Source: Octopus sinensis (Eukaryota). From it: a stretch of 51,118 nucleotides of DNA. The stretch lies in assembly GCF_006345805.1 (NCBI RefSeq), contig NW_021833785.1, forward strand, positions 1-51,118, written 5' to 3'. This document shows, piece by piece, positions 39,884-51,118 of this stretch. The position numbers are program-made. Within the stretch, counting starts at the first letter, position 1; each line of letters opens with the position of its first letter.

Positions 39884-42800
39884 CATGATATCTGTTATAT
39901 TTTGGTTCATCTCATAATGACCTTGTTTCATTTGACCATTAAAGATATTATTATCAGTGGTGGTGGTCAGTTGGACTGTCAACACCGCTAATATCAACAT
40001 GATCAATATACAATTCCTCCACAAACACAAGGGTTTTGTAGTACATGTGATTAAATCTATTTCCATTATTTTACTGGTACATTGGTAATATTTATATTAT
40101 ACAGATCAATATAATACTGGAGAGTGTATATAATATGTATTTATTAACTAACCTGCTTCAGCATCGCACACACCACTTTATACTCTCGCCTGAAAGTAAT
40201 GGATGAGGAAAGAAAAGCATGAAAAAACAAACATCACACAGCTTGAGATAATAGTTATTAGGTCATTAAAGAAAACAAATGTAATTAGGTCACAATAACT
40301 TAATTACAGCAATTATTACACACATACTCACACACACATATATTTATTCAATACACACTCTACACAGTAGAACAATGATATATACACACCTGAGTAAACC
40401 CAGAAATGTAAAGACAGGAAAAATACTGCTAAGAATTCTGACAGCTAATATAAACATGAAATTTAGGAAGGAAAGAAGGGCTACAGGTAATCATATGAAC
40501 CCCAGTACATGACTGGTATTGTATTTTATCAACCTTGCAAAGATGGAAGGAGAAGTTGACATTGTCAGGATTTGAACTCTGAACGTAAAGAGTCGTAAAT
40601 AAAATAACACAATTTATTTTCTTCAAAAGTAATAAGAAACAAGAACTGGAGAAAAGAAGGAAGACAGTTTATTAAAGGAACCCCTGGGTATTACTGGTAC
40701 AGATTATATTGACCCCAGAGTGATAGTAAATATTCTGGTAGGATTTGAACATGGAACATAAAAGAGACAAATGTAAATACTGTAAGGGGATGATTCTGTA
40801 TTTAGCCCAGGGTCGGAATAAATAGGGAAACTACAAAGGAGAGAGAGTGAGGAAGAAAGAGAGAAAGAGAGAGAAAGTAGTTATAGATGGGATGAAAGGA
40901 AGAAGAGAGAGGATTTGAACCTGTGACGTTGAGGAAATGGAGAACGAGATGAAGTAAAGTGTCCAGTCAGGCAACAACAATAACAATTATGGTGATGATT
41001 AATTAATAAAGTAGATTACAGTGTTATTTCAGTGCGAAAGAGAGAAGAAAGACAATGACCCCATGGTGGGATTATGACATGAATGACTGAATGAAAAAGA
41101 AACAAACATTATTGAAAACATAAAAGAAACAGATTTGGATATTCCAGATCCAATGGGGACTTACCTCCGAACTGCCCAATGCAGTGGTGTGTCTCCATCG
41201 TTGTTCACGACATTGGCATCGATGCCATTGTGACCCAACAAAATTTCGACAGTGTGCAAGTATCCCCAATAACAGGCGAAGTGCAGCGGTGTGCGACCAT
41301 CTTTATTTCGAGGATTCACCTGAAAAAGAAAAGAATAAAAACATTAAAAATGGTGTCTGAAAGGGGAGTCGGGTGGTGAAGAATTAAAAGAAAAATTCAC
41401 AGAAAAAGAGAAGAGAAGGAATGAAATTAATTAAACAGGTGGAATGATTGGGGTGGGGAGTAGTTAATGCAGATTTCTATTGTATATACACACACGCGTA
41501 TACACACATACATGTGTACATATAAATATATTTATACACACACACACAAACACACGCATATAGGATGAATAACTCAATAAATAAACACATAGAGCAGCAA
41601 AATGTGTGTGTATGTGTGTGTTCGCGTGTGTATGTTCATAGTTACATTTATTCTTTTATTCTTTCATTTGTTTCAGTCATGTGACTGTGGCCATGGTGGA
41701 GCACTGTCGTTAGTCGAGCAAATCGACCCCAGTAAGCCTTGTACTTATTTTATTAGTTTCTTTTGCTGAAACGCTAGTTTACGGGGACGTAAACACACCA
41801 GCAGCGGTTTTCAAGCGATGTTGGGGACAAATACAGACACACAAACACACGCACGTACACACATACACTCATAACACACACACAGACACGCACATATATG
41901 TACATATATTATATATATATATATATAATATATATATGGACATACATATATACATATATATATATCTGTATATATAAGGCAAGATGTGTGTGTGTACGTT
42001 TTGTAATTTATGCACATCTAAAAATTAACACGCATGCCGCTCAAATTTTAGGGGGTCATTCGTCATGACCCCGGCAGTATTTTCGTCAAATTTCTCCCGA
42101 GACATCCGCGAATAGCGGTAAATAATTTTGAGCCATAACTTCTAAATTTTTAAGATGGCGAAAGCTACCATTGTTTACAAAGCAAACATGAGTTAAGTTC
42201 TCTCCTAGCGACGGTGTAAATAGAGGGAGGGAGAAGGAGAGGGAGAGAGAGAGATTTTTATAATTTCGTCTTTTTACTGGCAATAACAGACAGACAGGTG
42301 TTGTTATGTATGTTTGTATGTGTGAATGGCTTCAGTCACGCATACACACACGCGAGCATGTATGCGTAAAAGACACATAATGGCAATGTTTGTGTGTGTG
42401 TGTGTTGCGTATATATATACGGGCAACATAAACAATATTCTCCGTTTCTACAACTAATTTCCAAATTAGCTGAATCCGTTGTTAATCATAGCATAGCGAT
42501 ATATCTGGTCGTGCGTGTGAACATGGGAGAGAGCAGAGGTTACCAGAGCAAAGATCTACGTGTTGACTGTAGACACGCTCTCCTCGCAAACGACAGCTAT
42601 TATTTTGTAAACAATGTTTCGAACTGTTCATGTTTTCGAAAGGAGAGGGGTCAACCTAAAGCGTTGACCCGGTCATAAAAACAAACAAAAATAGTAATAT
42701 GTGTAAAAGAACTTCCTCTAAAAATATGACCAAAAAAACGTGCTCTCGCAAAAGGGGTTGGGGGAGAGGCCTATGGCCTTTTCTTTGATAATATCTTTCT

Positions 42801-43544
42801 TGCTCATTTAAATTCAGTTCAATGCAGTCTTGCCTTGAACCAAACCTTTCTCTTTGTGTGTGTGTGTTCTTGATAATCGTTTCGAACAAGTTGTTTTACA
42901 CCTATTACACTATTTTTTTGTTTTTGTGCCCGGGTCAGACATGTAACATCCACGATGTGAATTTTCCGAGGCCTCTCCCCCACTCCCCTTTCGCGATCGC
43001 ACATTTTTTGAGTCATATTCGTTTAGAAGAATTTGTTTTACACCTATTACACTATTTTTTTGTTTGTTTTATGACCGGGTCAAACACTTTAGTTTGACCA
43101 GGAGAGGTATGACTTTCACATCGCTGCGGGAGAAGGTAGGCTCCTCTATTCCTGTTACAAAACTTACTTCCGGGTACCAAATTTGCTTCAATTGATGGTA
43201 TTACTCGGGTCGGAGGTGGTGGTGGGACAGTGGCAGGGGCAAAGGCGTGCAGAAACATGTATACAATAGGTGTATGTACGTATATGTTTGCGTGTGTGTG
43301 TGTTTTACCCATATATATAAACTTAGTTGTGATCTGAACATAACCGCTTCTGAAACAGAGGTTCCGGAGCCCTTTTGGGCGTTTTATTTTCCTTGCTGGA
43401 AGGGTTCTCAATCCATGGGCAAAATGGGGTTACACGAAAAAAAAAAGAAAAAAAACAATCGATGAGTGTAAAAATCGAGAAACCGATTTCTTATGGAACC
43501 ATGTGGTTTGTAAGCAAGCTACTAACCACACAGCCAATCCTGTG

Positions 43545-43578
<34 letters not shown>

Positions 43579-43823
43579 TGTGGTTGTATGTTCATCATGA
43601 AGCGTTTAAGAATAAATATTTCTTTATAAAATTTTCTGATAATCCATCCCTATCCATGTCTTAATCAACAATTATGTCTGGAGTTGGGATTGGTTTGAAA
43701 CTCATCAAATGCTTTTATTTTTTCAACATAATCGGAAACACCAGAAAGTCATGGAGGAAAAATAACGGGGCTCAGGAAGTATATATATGTATGTGTGTGT
43801 GGATATGTATATATATATATATA

Positions 43824-43885
<62 letters not shown>

Positions 43886-48400: not shown

Positions 48401-49008
48401 TATCATCATCATCAGCATCATCATCATTATCATCCTCCTCCTCCTCCTCCTCATCATCATCATCATCATCATCGTAATCATCATCATCACCATCATCATC
48501 ATCATTATCATACTCATCATCATTATCATCATCATCATTATCATCATCATCATCATCATCATTATCAGCATCCTCCTCCTCCCTCCTCTCCTCCTATCAT
48601 CATCATCATCATTATCATCATTATCCTCATCATCATCATCATCATAATCATCATCATCATCATTCATTATCCATCACATCATCATCATCATCCTCCTGCT
48701 CATCATCATCATTATTATCTCTCATCATAATCATCATCATCATCATCATCATTATCATCATCCTCATCCTCATCCTCATCGTCATCATAATCATCATCAT
48801 CATCATTATCATCATCACATCTGCATCATCATCATCATTATAATCATCCTCATCCTCATCCTTATCATCATCCTCATCATCATCATCATTATCCTCATCA
48901 TCATCATCATCATCATCATAATCATCATCATCATTATCATCCACATCATCATCATCATCCTCATCATCATTATCATCCTCATCCTCATCATCATCATCAT
49001 CATCATCC

Positions 49009-49039
<31 letters not shown>

Positions 49040-49550
49040 TATCATCATCATCATCAGCATCATCATCATCATAATCATCATCATCCTCCTCCTAATCATC
49101 ATCCTCATCATCATCATCATCATCATCTTTATCATCATCATAATCATCATCTTCCTCCTCATCATCATCATCCTCAACATCATTATCATCCTCATGATCA
49201 TCATCCTCATCATCATTATCATCCTCATCATCATCATCATCATCATCATCATTATCATCATCCTCATCATCATCATCATCATCATCATCGTCATCATCAT
49301 CATCCTCATAATCATCATTATCATCATCATCATCAGCATCATCATCTTCATAATCATCATCATCCTCCTCCTAATCATCATCCTTATCCTCAACATCATC
49401 ATCATCATCATCATTATCATCATCATAATCATCATCATCCTCCTCCTAATCATCATCCTCATCCTCATCATCATCCTCAACATCAATATCATCCTCCTCA
49501 TCATCATCCTCATCATCCTCATCATCATCGTCATCATCATCATCCTCATT

Positions 49551-49582
<32 letters not shown>

Positions 49583-51118
49583 CCTCCTTATCAGCATCAT
49601 CATCATCATCATCATCCTCATCATCATCATCATCCTCATCATCATCATCATCATCATCAACATCCTCATCATCATCATCATCATCAATCATCTTCATCAT
49701 CATCATAATCATTATCGTCATCATAATCATCATCATCATCATCCTCATCATCATCATCATACTCATCATCATCATCATCATCATCACCATCATCAACATC
49801 ATCATCCTCATCATCATCATCCTCATCATCATCATCATTATCATCATCATCATCCTCATCATCATCATTATCATCATTCTCATACTCATCATCATCATCA
49901 TCCTCATCATCCTCATCATCGTCATCATCCTCATCATCCTCATCATCATCATCCTCATCCTCCTCCTATCATCATCACCATCATCATCAGCAGCAGCAGC
50001 ATCATCATCATCATCATTATCATTATCATCAACTTCATCCTCATCATAATTATCATCATAATCATCATCATCATCATCATCATTATCATTATCATCATCA
50101 TCATTACCATCATCATTATCCTCCTCATCATCATCATCATCCTCATCTTCATCATCTTAGTGAGTTTTCCAGTATTTAAGTTCCATACTTAGGCACACAC
50201 ACACACTGAACGTAAAGAGTCGTAAATAAAATAACACAATTTATTTTCTCTAAAAGTAATAAGAAACAAGAACTGGAGAAAAGAAGGAAGACAGTTTATT
50301 AAAGGAACCCCTGGGTATTACTGGTACAGATTATATTGACCCCAGAGTGATAGTAAATATTCTGGTAGGATTTGAACATGGAACATAAAAGAGACAAATG
50401 TAAATTACTGTAAGGGGATATTCTCTATTTTAGCCCACGGTCGGAGTAAATAGGGAAACTACAAAGGAGAGAGAGTGAGGAAGAAAGAGAGAAAGTAGTT
50501 CTAGATGGAGGAGGAAAGGAAGAGAGAGAGGATTTGAACTGTGACGTGAGAGGAAATGAGAACGAGATGACGTAAAGTGTCCAGTCAGGCAACAACAATA
50601 ACAATTATGGTGAGATTAATTAATAAAGTAGATTACAGTGCGAAAGAGAGAAGAAGACAATGACCCCTGGTGGGATTATGACATGAATGACTGAATGAAA
50701 AAGAAACAAACATTATTGAAAACATAAAAGAAACAGATTTGGATATTCCAGATCCAATGGGGACTTACCACTGAACTGCCACATGCAGTGGTGTGTCTCC
50801 ATCGTTGTTCACAACATTGGCATCAATGCCATTGTGACCCAACAAAATTTCGACAGTGTGCAAGTATCCCAGATAACAGGCGAAGTGCAGCGGTGTGCGA
50901 CCATCATTAGACCGTGCGTTGACCTGATAAAGAAAAGAATAAAAACATTAAAAATGGTGTCTGAAAGGGGAGTCGGGTGGTGAAGAATCAAAGAAAAACT
51001 CACAGAAAAAGAGAAGAGAAGGAATGAATGAAATTATTAAACAGGTGGAATGATTGGGGTGGGGAGTAGGTAAGGGAGATTTCTATTGTATATACACACA
51101 CGCGTATACACACATACA

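What the first reader, a model, noticed from the sequence alone, without database searches (positions are those of the whole stretch)
41064..50990. Duplicated ankyrin exons are more divergent than their introns, with changes on the binding surface
Seen: the two 155-bp exons differ at 16 positions by manual count, giving 7 amino-acid changes (A/P, S/N, N/K, L/W, V/W, Q/R, W/R). The ~100 bp of intron next to the donor (41064-41164 vs ~50668-50768) is identical, and the ~65 bp next to the acceptor has one difference. Known: ankyrin ligand specificity lies in the beta-turn before TPLH and the exposed residues of helix 1 (largely the positions randomised in DARPins). All 7 changes fall in those two segments; helix 2 is unchanged at the protein level. 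Inference: diversifying selection or patchwise gene conversion on a recognition module, as in variable innate immune receptors.
Basis: partly seen in the sequence, partly recalled or inferred. Interest (0 to 1): 0.85.

Follow-up and report, generated by a model that had tools for sequence, protein, structure and literature searches.

The report
Mosaic duplicated ankyrin exon in octopus
Two copies of an ankyrin-repeat exon in an octopus gene differ mainly in short patches whose states also occur in other members of a large octopus-only gene family, which points to gene conversion rather than new adaptive mutations.

Summary
The two 155-nt minus-strand exons (A 41165-41319, B 50769-50923) differ at 16 of 155 nt. 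Their 752 aligned intron positions differ at 16 (Fisher p=1.3e-5). The window is a whole 51,118-bp Octopus sinensis contig. The gene belongs to an Octopus-only family with ankyrin repeats, a RING finger and a Death domain, auto-named "MIB2-like".

The excess is not uniform. Eight differences lie in exon nt 3-18, where synonymous sites are saturated (pS 0.86). Four lie in nt 142-154. The 123-nt core matches the intron rate. Whole-exon dN/dS is 0.38, and synonymous divergence (0.18) far exceeds intron divergence (0.021).

B's end motifs (VNARSN......HVAVQ) recur in other paralogs with different cores (P0188, P0083, P0085). B's core is 38/39 identical to A's. The exon is therefore a mosaic. Patchwise gene conversion is supported; diversifying selection on new mutations is not shown.

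The changed residues do sit at family-wide hypervariable ankyrin surface positions. Paralog DNA and raw reads were unavailable, so conversion direction and assembly errors remain open. Copy B sits at the contig end.

The parts
41165..41319 (-). Exon A, 155 nt, phase 0 start, ends with 2 nt of a split codon. It encodes VNPRNKDGRTPLHFACYWGYLHTVEILLGHNGIDANVVNNDGDTPLHWAVR (about 1.5 ankyrin repeats).
   Evidence: Pfam Ank E=1.6e-14 on the enclosing ORF. Residues 104-155 of the public model P0004.
50769..50923 (-). Exon B, 155 nt, the duplicate of A. It encodes VNARSNDGRTPLHFACYLGYLHTVEILLGHNGIDANVVNNDGDTPLHVAVQ and is the first exon visible on the contig.
   Evidence: Pfam Ank E=1.4e-13. Residues 1-52 of P0004.
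40576..41512 (.). Duplicated block, copy A (exon A plus 589 nt of downstream and 193 nt of upstream intron).
   Evidence: blastn 92.5% identity over 945 columns, 34 mismatches, 17 gaps. Region-wise counts.
50203..51118 (.). Duplicated block, copy B. It is cut off by the end of the contig 195 nt upstream of exon B.
   Evidence: The contig length equals the window length (P0004 longest_contig 51118).
41302..41317 (-). 5' divergent patch of the exon (exon nt 3-18, codons 1-6). 8 of 16 nt differ, 4 of about 4.7 synonymous sites differ. The B counterpart is 50906-50921.
   Evidence: P(>=8 of 16 at the flank rate) = 4.6e-10. The B state VNARSN is shared with P0083, P0085, P0071 and P0188.
41166..41178 (-). 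3' divergent patch (exon nt 142-154): W48V (TGG/GTG), R51Q (CGG/CAG, a CpG transition) and split codon AG/TG. The B counterpart is 50770-50782.
   Evidence: P(>=4 of 14) = 1.7e-4. V48 occurs in 18 of 41 and Q51 in 16 of 41 distinct family segments.
44784..44937 (-). Exon X, 154 nt, between B and A. It encodes (W)KHLQAVELLLSRGSNVNEKSSDGSTPLHLAANSSPEWTDGVKAIMNRSAVE. B+X = 309 nt = 3 ankyrin repeats in frame.
45008..50156 (.). (CAT)n microsatellite, about 1717 units, 81% matches, in the intron between exon B and exon X. It abuts the end of duplicated block B.
   Evidence: GC skew about -0.9.
40153..40189 (-). Micro-exon Y, 37 nt (G CGA GAG ... CAG). It completes A's split codon to AGG = R and encodes REYKVVCAMLKQ.
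   Evidence: P0004 residues 155-167.
36748..36960 (-). Exon Z, ankyrin (GSVQLDIQNNQKRTPLLEAV...LLNEE).
   Evidence: (Ank_4 E=1.6e-6).
35977..36054 (-). Last coding exon of the public model P0004 (PVYCIRLSDVINSMDFNTTGLFAVIS, then stop). It has no counterpart in the paralogs examined.
35001..35177 (-). Family-typical exon (CCTSL...EERLSGIVVARYLASQGADFHHKNNK...NNTPLDLIKDPNLRKKLEAFLPPQ). As assembled it needs three reading frames, with two shifts, both at A runs.
   Evidence: tblastn with P0034 and P0067 gives two HSPs in different frames, each 96% identical. Three-frame translation.
32415..32554 (-). RING-finger exon (zf-C3HC4_3).
   Evidence: Pfam E=1.8e-7, 31.3 bits against a cut-off of 27. 91% identity to P0067. 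Boundaries.
22663..25281 (-). Two Death-domain coding pieces (HSPs 25198-25281 and 22663-22842).
   Evidence: Pfam Death E=6e-6, 26.7 bits against a cut-off of 22.6, on ORF 22651-22944. tblastn with P0043, P0034 and P0067.

Best explanation
Exons A and B are tandem copies of a 155-nt exon. With the 154-nt exon X, this exon forms a 309-nt, three-ankyrin-repeat module. The gene belongs to an Octopus-specific family with ankyrin repeats, one RING finger and a Death domain.

Most of the roughly 0.9-kb duplicated block, meaning both intron flanks and the exon core, is young or recently homogenised. It is about 2% diverged, and the core differences are CpG transitions plus one dinucleotide change.

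The excess exon divergence comes from two short end patches, and perhaps the W18L dinucleotide. These patches carry an older, different ancestry. B's ends (VNARSN... and ...HVAVQ) belong to an exon type present in other family members. A's ends (VNPRNK... and ...AVR) are the type of the gene's closest paralogs.

The most likely process is short-tract gene conversion. Either a young duplicate received exon-limited patches from dispersed paralogs, or A-to-B homogenisation left islands unconverted. Ordinary mutation adds the rest.

Shown: the clustering, the saturated synonymous sites in the 5' patch, the shared states and the protein-level mosaic. Inferred: the conversion mechanism, its direction and the donor.
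For: - Exon 16/155 against flanks 16/752 substitutions, p=1.3e-5.
- Eight of the 16 differences lie in nt 3-18 (P=4.6e-10 at the flank rate) and 4 in nt 142-154 (P=1.7e-4). The 123-nt core has 4, against 2.6 expected (p=0.27).
- Codons 1-6: pS 0.86, pN 0.30. Whole exon: dN/dS 0.38. Synonymous against intron divergence: p=2.6e-4.
- In 41 distinct homologous segments from 45 other Octopus proteins, both the A state and the B state occur at 6 of 7 changed positions. Counts for A3, S5 and N6 are 5 each, mostly together as VNARSNDG, INARSNDG or VNAQSNDG.
- B's core (residues 9-47) is 38/39 identical to A's. It is 29-33/39 identical to the six VNA-type paralogs, and the best other paralog reaches 34/39 to B (35/39 to A).
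- Triplet patterns (B like the paralog at the ends, like A in the middle) are contiguous in 4 of 6 VNA-type paralogs. Chance values are 0.01-0.07 for those four and 0.005-0.008 as reference values for the two non-contiguous ones.
- P0188 carries both B-type ends (VNARSNNGR...HVAVQR) with a different core.
- A search with exon B found no relative closer than A. The best others are 86%, 84% and 84%, against 88% for A.
- The same two-exon module is repeated in another paralog, P0026.
Against: - No paralog DNA could be examined, so no nucleotide-level conversion test was run and no donor tract was seen. The protein-level mosaic tests are post hoc and only modestly significant.
- The patch limits coincide with the exon ends to within 3 nt on both sides. 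Neither conversion scenario explains this simply, because a tract needs homology beyond the patch.
- Three of the 16 differences are CpG transitions, including R51Q, so they need no conversion.
- W at position 52 is not seen in any other segment.
- The 3' patch has 3 nonsynonymous and 0 synonymous differences. Taken alone this would fit selection.
- Copy B lies at the contig end in an assembly that shows frame-breaking A-run indels elsewhere in this gene.
Confidence: 0.6

Rival explanations
1. Assembly or polishing artefact. Copy B might be a misjoined paralogous or allelic fragment attached across the 5.1-kb (CAT)n tract. Alternatively, its exon ends might have been altered by short reads from other family members mis-mapped during polishing. 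Either would affect only the exonic, family-homologous sequence.
For: - Copy B is the last 916 nt of a 51,118-bp contig and is cut off by its end.
- It abuts a 5.1-kb imperfect trinucleotide repeat.
- Another exon of the same gene carries two frame shifts at A runs relative to paralogs that are 96% identical.
- The flanks of A and B differ by 16 gap events, many in short runs.
- The B-specific states are the ones present in other family members, as mis-polishing would produce.
Against: - Exon B is intact, with no indel against 16 gap events in the flanks (P=0.037).
- It has proper AG and GT splice sites and reads in frame into exon X.
- The public annotation joins B, X and A in one model.
- Another paralog (P0026) shows the same module repeated.
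- The flanks carry their own 16 substitutions, so A and B are not one locus assembled twice from identical reads.
Confidence: 0.15
2. Diversifying (positive) selection on new point mutations since a recent duplication. Under this reading, amino-acid changes at the ligand-binding surface were fixed faster than neutral intron changes.
For: - Seven amino-acid changes occur at or next to canonical binding-surface positions.
- These are the family's most variable columns (p=1e-4).
- The same positions (2, 3, 5, 10, 13, 14) are hypervariable in all four repeats covered by the family alignment.
- The 3' patch has 3 nonsynonymous and 0 synonymous changes.
Against: - Whole-exon dN/dS is 0.38.
- Synonymous sites are about 8 times more diverged than introns (p=2.6e-4).
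- All of the first four codons carry third-position differences, including V1, N2 and R4, which do not change the protein.
- Eight changes in 16 nt at a 2.1% background rate has P=4.6e-10.
- The resulting motif is identical to a pre-existing family haplotype.
Confidence: 0.08
3. The introns are unusually conserved because they are functional. One example would be an editing-complementary sequence forming double-stranded RNA with the exon, as is common in cephalopods. On this view the exon is not unusually diverged.
For: There are 101 identical nt next to the donor. That coleoid cephalopods conserve sequence around RNA-editing sites is recalled, not taken from a call.
Against: - The pre-mRNA stretch 41040-41400 folds no better than shuffles (z = -0.02; 52 of 100 shuffles fold as well).
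- No exon-intron inverted repeat appears among the 25 longest inverted pairs in 40500-41700.
- There is no Rfam match in the window.
- This view does not explain the saturated synonymous sites in codons 1-6.
Confidence: 0.03
4. A and B are mutually exclusive alternative exons. They have equal length, 155 nt is not a multiple of 3, and they are homologous.
For: Same length and phase, with 90% nucleotide identity. Direct B-to-A splicing would shift the frame and hit a stop at once (read from the sequences).
Against: - They are not adjacent. Exon X (154 nt) lies between them and restores the frame, and micro-exon Y (37 nt) does so after A.
- B-X-A-Y-Z reads as one continuous ankyrin array and is the public model.
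Confidence: 0.02

Closest known systems
MIB1/MIB2 (mind bomb) E3 ubiquitin ligases, the name NCBI gives most family members
   Same: An ankyrin-repeat array followed by a C-terminal RING finger of the zf-C3HC4_3 type.
   Different: None of the 7 family proteins scanned has a MIB/HERC2 domain, a ZZ finger or MIB repeats, and 4 of those 7 end in a Death domain, which MIB proteins lack. The name reflects best-hit transfer through the ankyrin and RING parts. The model on this contig is instead named 'EHMT1-like' through its ankyrin repeats alone.
Highly internally conserved ANK/TPR/WD repeats of fungal NOD-like receptors (PMC4986451, abstract and passages read)
   Same: Near-identical repeats within a protein, exchange of repeat sequence within and between family members, and variable sites on the concave face (inner helices and beta-hairpin/loop) of the ankyrin domain.
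   Different: The fungal repeats are single 33-residue units in one exon, with repeat-number polymorphism and demonstrated positive selection. Here the unit is a two-exon, three-repeat module with introns, seen in one genome, and selection is not shown. The domain partners are RING and Death, not NACHT/NB-ARC.
Designed ankyrin-repeat libraries (DARPins; ANK-N5C, PMC4308713, passages read; PDB 6mol alignment)
   Same: A fixed framework with diversity at repeat positions 2, 3, 5, 10, 13 and 14. The family alignment shows its highest entropy at these positions in four successive repeats. 5 of the 7 A/B changes are at such positions.
   Different: This is natural variation of unknown function. Two A/B changes (positions 32 and 1) are framework positions in those designs. 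The DARPin position list 2, 3, 5, 13, 14, 33 is recalled, not taken from a call.
Islands of divergence between paralogs undergoing gene conversion (Tigriopus GOT1 paralogs, PMC3728101, only the start of the abstract seen in the listing)
   Same: Duplicates that are nearly identical over most of their length, with short strongly diverged stretches and novel combinations of variation.
   Different: Those are whole-gene paralogs. Here a single exon inside one gene is duplicated, and the diverged states are shared with many dispersed family members.
Accelerated exon evolution with conserved introns (snake venom PLA2, conotoxins, primate NPIP/morpheus). Recalled, no call.
   Same: Exons more diverged than their introns between duplicates.
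   Different: In those cases dN exceeds dS. Here dN/dS is 0.38 and synonymous sites are also elevated.

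Membership tests
Ankyrin repeat (Pfam PF00023 / PF12796) | Profile match above the curated cut-off, and a helix-turn-helix plus loop fold. | tested here: met
   Exon A ORF: Ank 53.6 bits against a cut-off of 21.1. Exon B ORF: 50.6 bits. The AlphaFold model of exon A has mean pLDDT 86.3, with helices at 11-18, 21-28 and 45-50. 379 PDB sequences match at E<=1e-5, with designed ankyrin proteins and ankyrin-1 on top.
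MIB1/MIB2 E3 ligases | N-terminal MIB/HERC2 domain, ZZ zinc finger and MIB repeats. | tested here: not met
   None of the three was found in 7 of 7 family proteins scanned, 5 of which start with a methionine directly before the ankyrin array. They were also absent from the 237 window ORFs scanned. The 5' end of this particular gene lies off the contig, so for this copy alone the test is incomplete.
MIB1/MIB2 E3 ligases | Ankyrin array followed by C-terminal zf-C3HC4_3 RING finger(s). | tested here: met
   RING exon 32415-32554: PF13920 31.3 bits against a cut-off of 27. One RING was found, whereas MIB proteins have two or three (recalled).
EHMT1/GLP histone methyltransferase (NCBI's name for the model on this contig) | Pre-SET and SET domains C-terminal to the ankyrin repeats. 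| tested here: not met
   No SET match in any scanned ORF. The exons downstream of the ankyrin array encode a RING finger and a Death domain.
Death-domain proteins | Pfam PF00531 match above the cut-off. | tested here: met
   ORF 22651-22944: 26.7 bits against a cut-off of 22.6, E=6e-6. It aligns to the Death region of P0043 at 43% identity over 60 residues. Whether it is spliced to the ankyrin exons in this copy is not shown. Frame shifts at 35001-35177 intervene.
Interlocus/intragenic gene conversion | Mosaic ancestry: stretches matching a third sequence better than the partner, significant by a recombination test on DNA. | tested here: inconclusive
   A protein-level mosaic was seen against 6 VNA-type paralogs and P0188, and the nucleotide differences are clustered. 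A DNA-level test needs paralog DNA, which no tool here holds.
Positively selected recognition module | dN/dS above 1 at the variable sites. | tested here: not met
   Pairwise Nei-Gojobori dN/dS is 0.38 (Sd 6.5 of 36.3 sites, Nd 8.5 of 116.7 sites). Only two sequences were available, and conversion makes the ratio hard to interpret. Family-wide site models could not be run.
Mutually exclusive exon pair | Adjacent homologous exons of the same length and phase, with only one included per transcript. | tested here: not met
   Same length and phase, but the two are separated by exon X. The serial reading B-X-A-Y is in frame and is the annotated model. Transcript data were not available.

The most novel reading that the evidence does not exclude
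Octopuses may have evolved a large lineage-specific family of ankyrin-RING-Death proteins that works as a diversified intracellular recognition repertoire. It would resemble a natural DARPin library coupled to ubiquitin and death-domain signalling, comparable in logic to TRIM or fungal NLR repertoires. Specificity-determining patches of the ankyrin surface would be shuffled among dozens of paralogs by exon-limited micro gene conversion, and three-repeat modules added by tandem exon duplication. The A/B pair would then be a snapshot of that shuffling.
Probability: 0.2. Interest if true: 0.7.

Novelty: new member of a known kind. Interest (0 to 1): 0.4.

Why it matters
'Exon more diverged than intron' is often taken as a sign of adaptive evolution. 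Here the sequence shows that it can arise from mosaic ancestry in a multigene family, so it should not be scored as positive selection without recombination-aware tests.

The follow-up also exposed an Octopus-only family. At least 46 annotated proteins share this exon type. Their ankyrin framework is nearly invariant, and the canonical target-binding positions are hypervariable in every repeat. The ankyrin array is joined to a RING finger and a Death domain. Three literature searches found no description of this family. It is a reasonable candidate for a cephalopod recognition or signalling repertoire and can be tested with existing genomes and transcriptomes.

Tried and rejected
- RNA-editing or structured-intron explanation. 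The fold of 41040-41400 (minus strand) gives z = -0.02. There is no exon-intron inverted repeat among the 25 longest pairs. Rfam found 0 matches in the window.
- Mutually exclusive exons. Rejected on gene structure.
- A second X-like exon downstream of A, which would indicate a simple [A-X] tandem unit inside the window. None was found: tblastn with X hits only itself and the ankyrin exons A, B and Z.
- Context co-adaptation of the exon ends with neighbouring exons. VNA-type and VNP-type exons both follow either '...SRGSE' or '...SAVE'-type exons in the paralogs, so there is no association.
- A relative closer to B than A. None among the 120 listed of 202 proteins passing.
- Literature on the family. 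'octopus'+'MIB2' gave 1 unrelated paper. 'cephalopod'+'death domain'+'ankyrin'+'expansion' gave 5 papers; the one read in passages (PMC11463336) concerns caspases, not this family. 'Octopus sinensis'+'ankyrin' gave 3 papers on TRP channels or AMPs. 'octopus'+'ankyrin repeat'+'expanded gene families' gave 0.
- Pfam scans of 237 ORFs of the window (147, 90) gave nothing else tied to the finding.
The only open contig collection holds bacteria and archaea and was not searched.
- Also not possible: raw reads, transcripts, and supplementary files of the papers cited.

Full report
**What is there**

The two exons lie on the minus strand. Exon A is 41165-41319 and exon B is 50769-50923. Each is 155 nt and is bounded by AG and GT.
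- They differ at 16 of 155 nt and have no indel.
- The peptides differ at P3A, N5S, K6N, W18L, W48V and R51Q.
- The split last codon reads AG|G = R in A and TG|G = W in B.
- The nearest intron differences are a 1-nt gap at 41063 and A/T at 41324; the next is at 41384.
- Over the whole duplicated block (40576-41512 versus 50203-51118) the flanks differ at 16 of 752 aligned positions (2.1%), plus 16 gap events. The exon differs at 10.3%.
- Fisher p=1.3e-5, or 0.004 if gap events count as differences.

**Context**

A search with exon A returned P0004, a 264-residue partial NCBI model from Octopus sinensis. It is 100% identical and sits on a contig of 51,118 bp, the length of the window. The window is therefore a whole small contig, not human sequence. 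Copy B is cut off by the contig's end 195 nt upstream of the exon.

Mapping P0004 and three paralogs back to the window gives this minus-strand gene:

| Exon | Coordinates | Length | Note |
|---|---|---|---|
| B | 50769-50923 | 155 nt | first exon visible on the contig |
| (CAT)n intron tract | 45008-50156 | 5.1 kb | |
| X | 44784-44937 | 154 nt | ankyrin |
| A | 41165-41319 | 155 nt | ankyrin |
| Y | 40153-40189 | 37 nt | micro-exon |
| Z | 36748-36960 | 213 nt | ankyrin |
| family-typical exon | 35001-35177 | 177 nt | two frame shifts at A runs |
| RING | 32415-32554 | 140 nt | zf-C3HC4_3 |
| Death | 25198-25281 and 22663-22842 | two pieces | |

- B+X is 309 nt, which is three ankyrin repeats. 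B-X-A-Y-Z reads as one continuous ankyrin array, so A and B are serial repeats and not alternative exons.
- As assembled, the 35001-35177 exon needs three reading frames relative to paralogs that are 96% identical.
- The public model avoids that exon and ends in a different exon (35977-36054).

**The family**

- Of the 120 proteins listed, 46 are named Octopus (O. sinensis or O. vulgaris). They carry a homologous 52-residue segment at 72-100% identity.
- By the precomputed Pfam column of that listing, 21 of the 46 have the zf-C3HC4_3 RING, 7 have a Death domain and 6 have both.
- A Pfam scan of 7 members found ankyrin repeats in all 7, the RING in 6 and the Death domain in 4. None has a MIB/HERC2 or ZZ domain.
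- The names 'MIB2-like' and 'EHMT1-like' are therefore best-hit labels, not memberships.
- The RING exon found 17 relatives among 18 candidates, all Octopus: 9 O. sinensis, 7 O. vulgaris and 1 O. bimaculoides.
- Three literature searches found no description of this family.

**Why the exon is more diverged**

The 16 differences are not spread evenly.
- Eight lie in exon nt 3-18, so all six first codons differ.
- Two are a dinucleotide change in codon 18 (TGG/CTG).
- Two are synonymous CpG transitions (nt 99 and 111).
- Two are a dinucleotide change in codon 48 (TGG/GTG).
- One is a CpG transition (R51Q, CGG/CAG).
- One is in the split codon.

At the flank rate, 8 or more differences in 16 nt has P=4.6e-10, and 4 or more in 14 nt has P=1.7e-4. 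The 123-nt core has 4 differences against 2.6 expected (p=0.27). The core and both introns therefore share one young age, and the excess is confined to the exon's two ends.

Nei-Gojobori counts give Sd 6.5 of 36.3 sites and Nd 8.5 of 116.7 sites. That is pS 0.179, pN 0.073 and dN/dS 0.38. In codons 1-6, pS is 0.86. Synonymous divergence exceeds intron divergence with p=2.6e-4. Selection on amino acids cannot raise synonymous divergence eightfold above the adjoining intron. The 5' patch is simply older sequence.

**Where the patches come from**

I compared A and B with 41 distinct homologous segments from 45 other Octopus proteins.
- Both the A state and the B state occur at 6 of the 7 changed positions. 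W52 is the exception.
- B's A3, S5 and N6 occur together as VNARSNDG, INARSNDG or VNAQSNDG in P0083, P0085, P0071, P0066 and P0042, and as VNARSNNG in P0188.
- A's VNPRNK matches the gene's closest paralogs, P0025 and P0067.
- B's core (residues 9-47) is 38/39 identical to A's and only 29-33/39 identical to the VNA-type paralogs.
- In triplet comparisons, B matches the paralog at the ends and A in the middle. The A-like run is contiguous in 4 of 6 paralogs, with chance values of 0.01-0.07.
- P0188 carries both B-type ends (VNARSNNGR...HVAVQR).
- No protein closer to B than A was found: 86% at best, against 88% for A.

Exon B is therefore a mosaic of two exon lineages of the family. This is what patchwise gene conversion produces. 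I cannot tell between two scenarios:
- A young duplicate of A received exon-limited patches from dispersed paralogs.
- An older VNA-type exon was overwritten by A everywhere except at its ends.

The first scenario needs fewer events. It would also explain why only the exon is affected, provided paralog introns are not homologous, and that was not testable. In both scenarios it remains unexplained that the patch limits coincide with the exon ends to within 3 nt.

**The binding-surface claim**

- A single-exon AlphaFold model (mean pLDDT 86.3) places helices at 11-18, 21-28 and 45-50.
- Alignment to a designed ankyrin protein (PDB 6mol) assigns the changes to repeat positions 32, 1, 2 and 14 in the first repeat and 10, 13 and 14 in the second.
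- Positions 2, 3, 5, 10 and 13 were the ones randomised in the ANK-N5C library because they form the binding surface (PMC4308713, passages read). The DARPin list 2, 3, 5, 13, 14, 33 is recalled.
- The seven changed positions rank 18, 9, 3, 2, 5, 11 and 1 of 52 by family entropy (Mann-Whitney p=1e-4).
- In the family alignment the same positions are the high-entropy columns in four successive repeats, and the framework is almost invariant.

However, these are also the least constrained positions of any ankyrin repeat, and no codon-level family data were available. Diversifying selection in the family is plausible but untested.

**Rivals**

- Assembly or polishing artefact (0.15). B is at a contig end next to a 5-kb microsatellite, in a gene with A-run frame shifts. 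Mis-polishing from paralog reads would also be exon-limited. Against this, the exon is intact and in frame, the flanks carry their own substitutions, and P0026 repeats the same module.
- Functional introns or an RNA-editing duplex (0.03). The fold has z = -0.02, there is no exon-intron inverted repeat and there is no Rfam hit.
- Mutually exclusive exons (0.02). Rejected on gene structure.
- Selection on new point mutations (0.08). Rejected for the 5' patch. It is not excluded for the 3' patch, which has 3 nonsynonymous and 0 synonymous differences.

**What was left out or unchecked**

- I searched and folded the gene exon by exon. I left out any search or fold with a joined spliced protein. 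A three-dimensional map of the changes on the whole ankyrin array, and solvent exposure of positions 10 and 32, therefore remain open.
- No collection with octopus DNA was available.
- Raw reads and transcripts could not be examined.
- Supplementary files of the cited papers were not seen. For PMC4986451 they hold the repeat-conservation tables that would show how rare such conserved ankyrin repeats are in animals.

**Verdict**

This is a real and statistically solid observation. Its cause is most likely mosaic ancestry through short-tract gene conversion in a large Octopus-specific ankyrin-RING-Death family, plus a few CpG mutations. It is not adaptive point mutation since the duplication. 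It is a new instance of a known kind of process. The family itself is the more interesting lead.

Noticed in passing
window 5880-18886: A 13-kb tandem satellite of a 69-bp unit (about 181 copies, 84% matches). It has extreme strand asymmetry (GC skew about -0.77, AT skew about -0.53) and fills a quarter of the contig.
   Followed up: no
window 45008-50156: A 5.1-kb imperfect (CAT)n trinucleotide array (about 1717 units, 81% matches) inside the intron between exons B and X. It directly abuts the end of duplicated block B.
   Followed up: partly
window 35001-35177 (minus): The exon upstream of the RING exon needs three reading frames relative to paralogs that are 96% identical. Both shifts are at A runs. 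This means either a decaying gene copy or homopolymer errors in the assembly. The public model skips this exon and ends early.
   Followed up: partly
window 2332-2667 (minus); 4564-4779 (plus): A C2H2 zinc-finger ORF (zf-H2C2_2 E=1.4e-22, 84-bp periodic repeat) and a PHD-finger ORF (E=6.3e-6) lie at the far end of the contig, beyond the satellite. A weaker PHD match (29651-29929, below cut-off) and a reverse-transcriptase fragment (30065-30265, below cut-off) lie inside the gene's introns.
   Followed up: no
window 363-938 and 43496-43575: A 188-bp unit repeated 3 times in tandem (95% matches). An 81-nt piece of it recurs at 91% identity in the intron between X and A, so it is probably a dispersed repeat element.
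   Followed up: no
window 50156-50206 and 36189-36239: A 51-nt stretch at the junction between the (CAT)n array and duplicated block B recurs inverted at 96% identity in another intron of the gene. It may be a repeat element marking the duplication breakpoint.
   Followed up: no
protein P0026 (Octopus sinensis paralog): Another family member has the order X-like, A-like, X-like. The two X-like segments differ at 8 of 51 residues (my count from the printed sequence). A tail follows that does not align in frame. The two-exon, three-repeat module has therefore been duplicated in more than one gene.
   Followed up: partly
protein P0102 (Octopus vulgaris): One family member combines the same ankyrin exon type with leucine-rich-repeat domains (PF13855, PF00560 and others in the precomputed Pfam column) instead of RING and Death domains.
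   Followed up: no
exon A versus B, exon nt 99, 111, 152 (window 41221, 41209, 41168): All three single-base transitions between the copies are at CpG sites, with CpG in A and TpG/CpA in B. B therefore looks like the copy that has decayed by deamination since the last homogenisation.
   Followed up: partly
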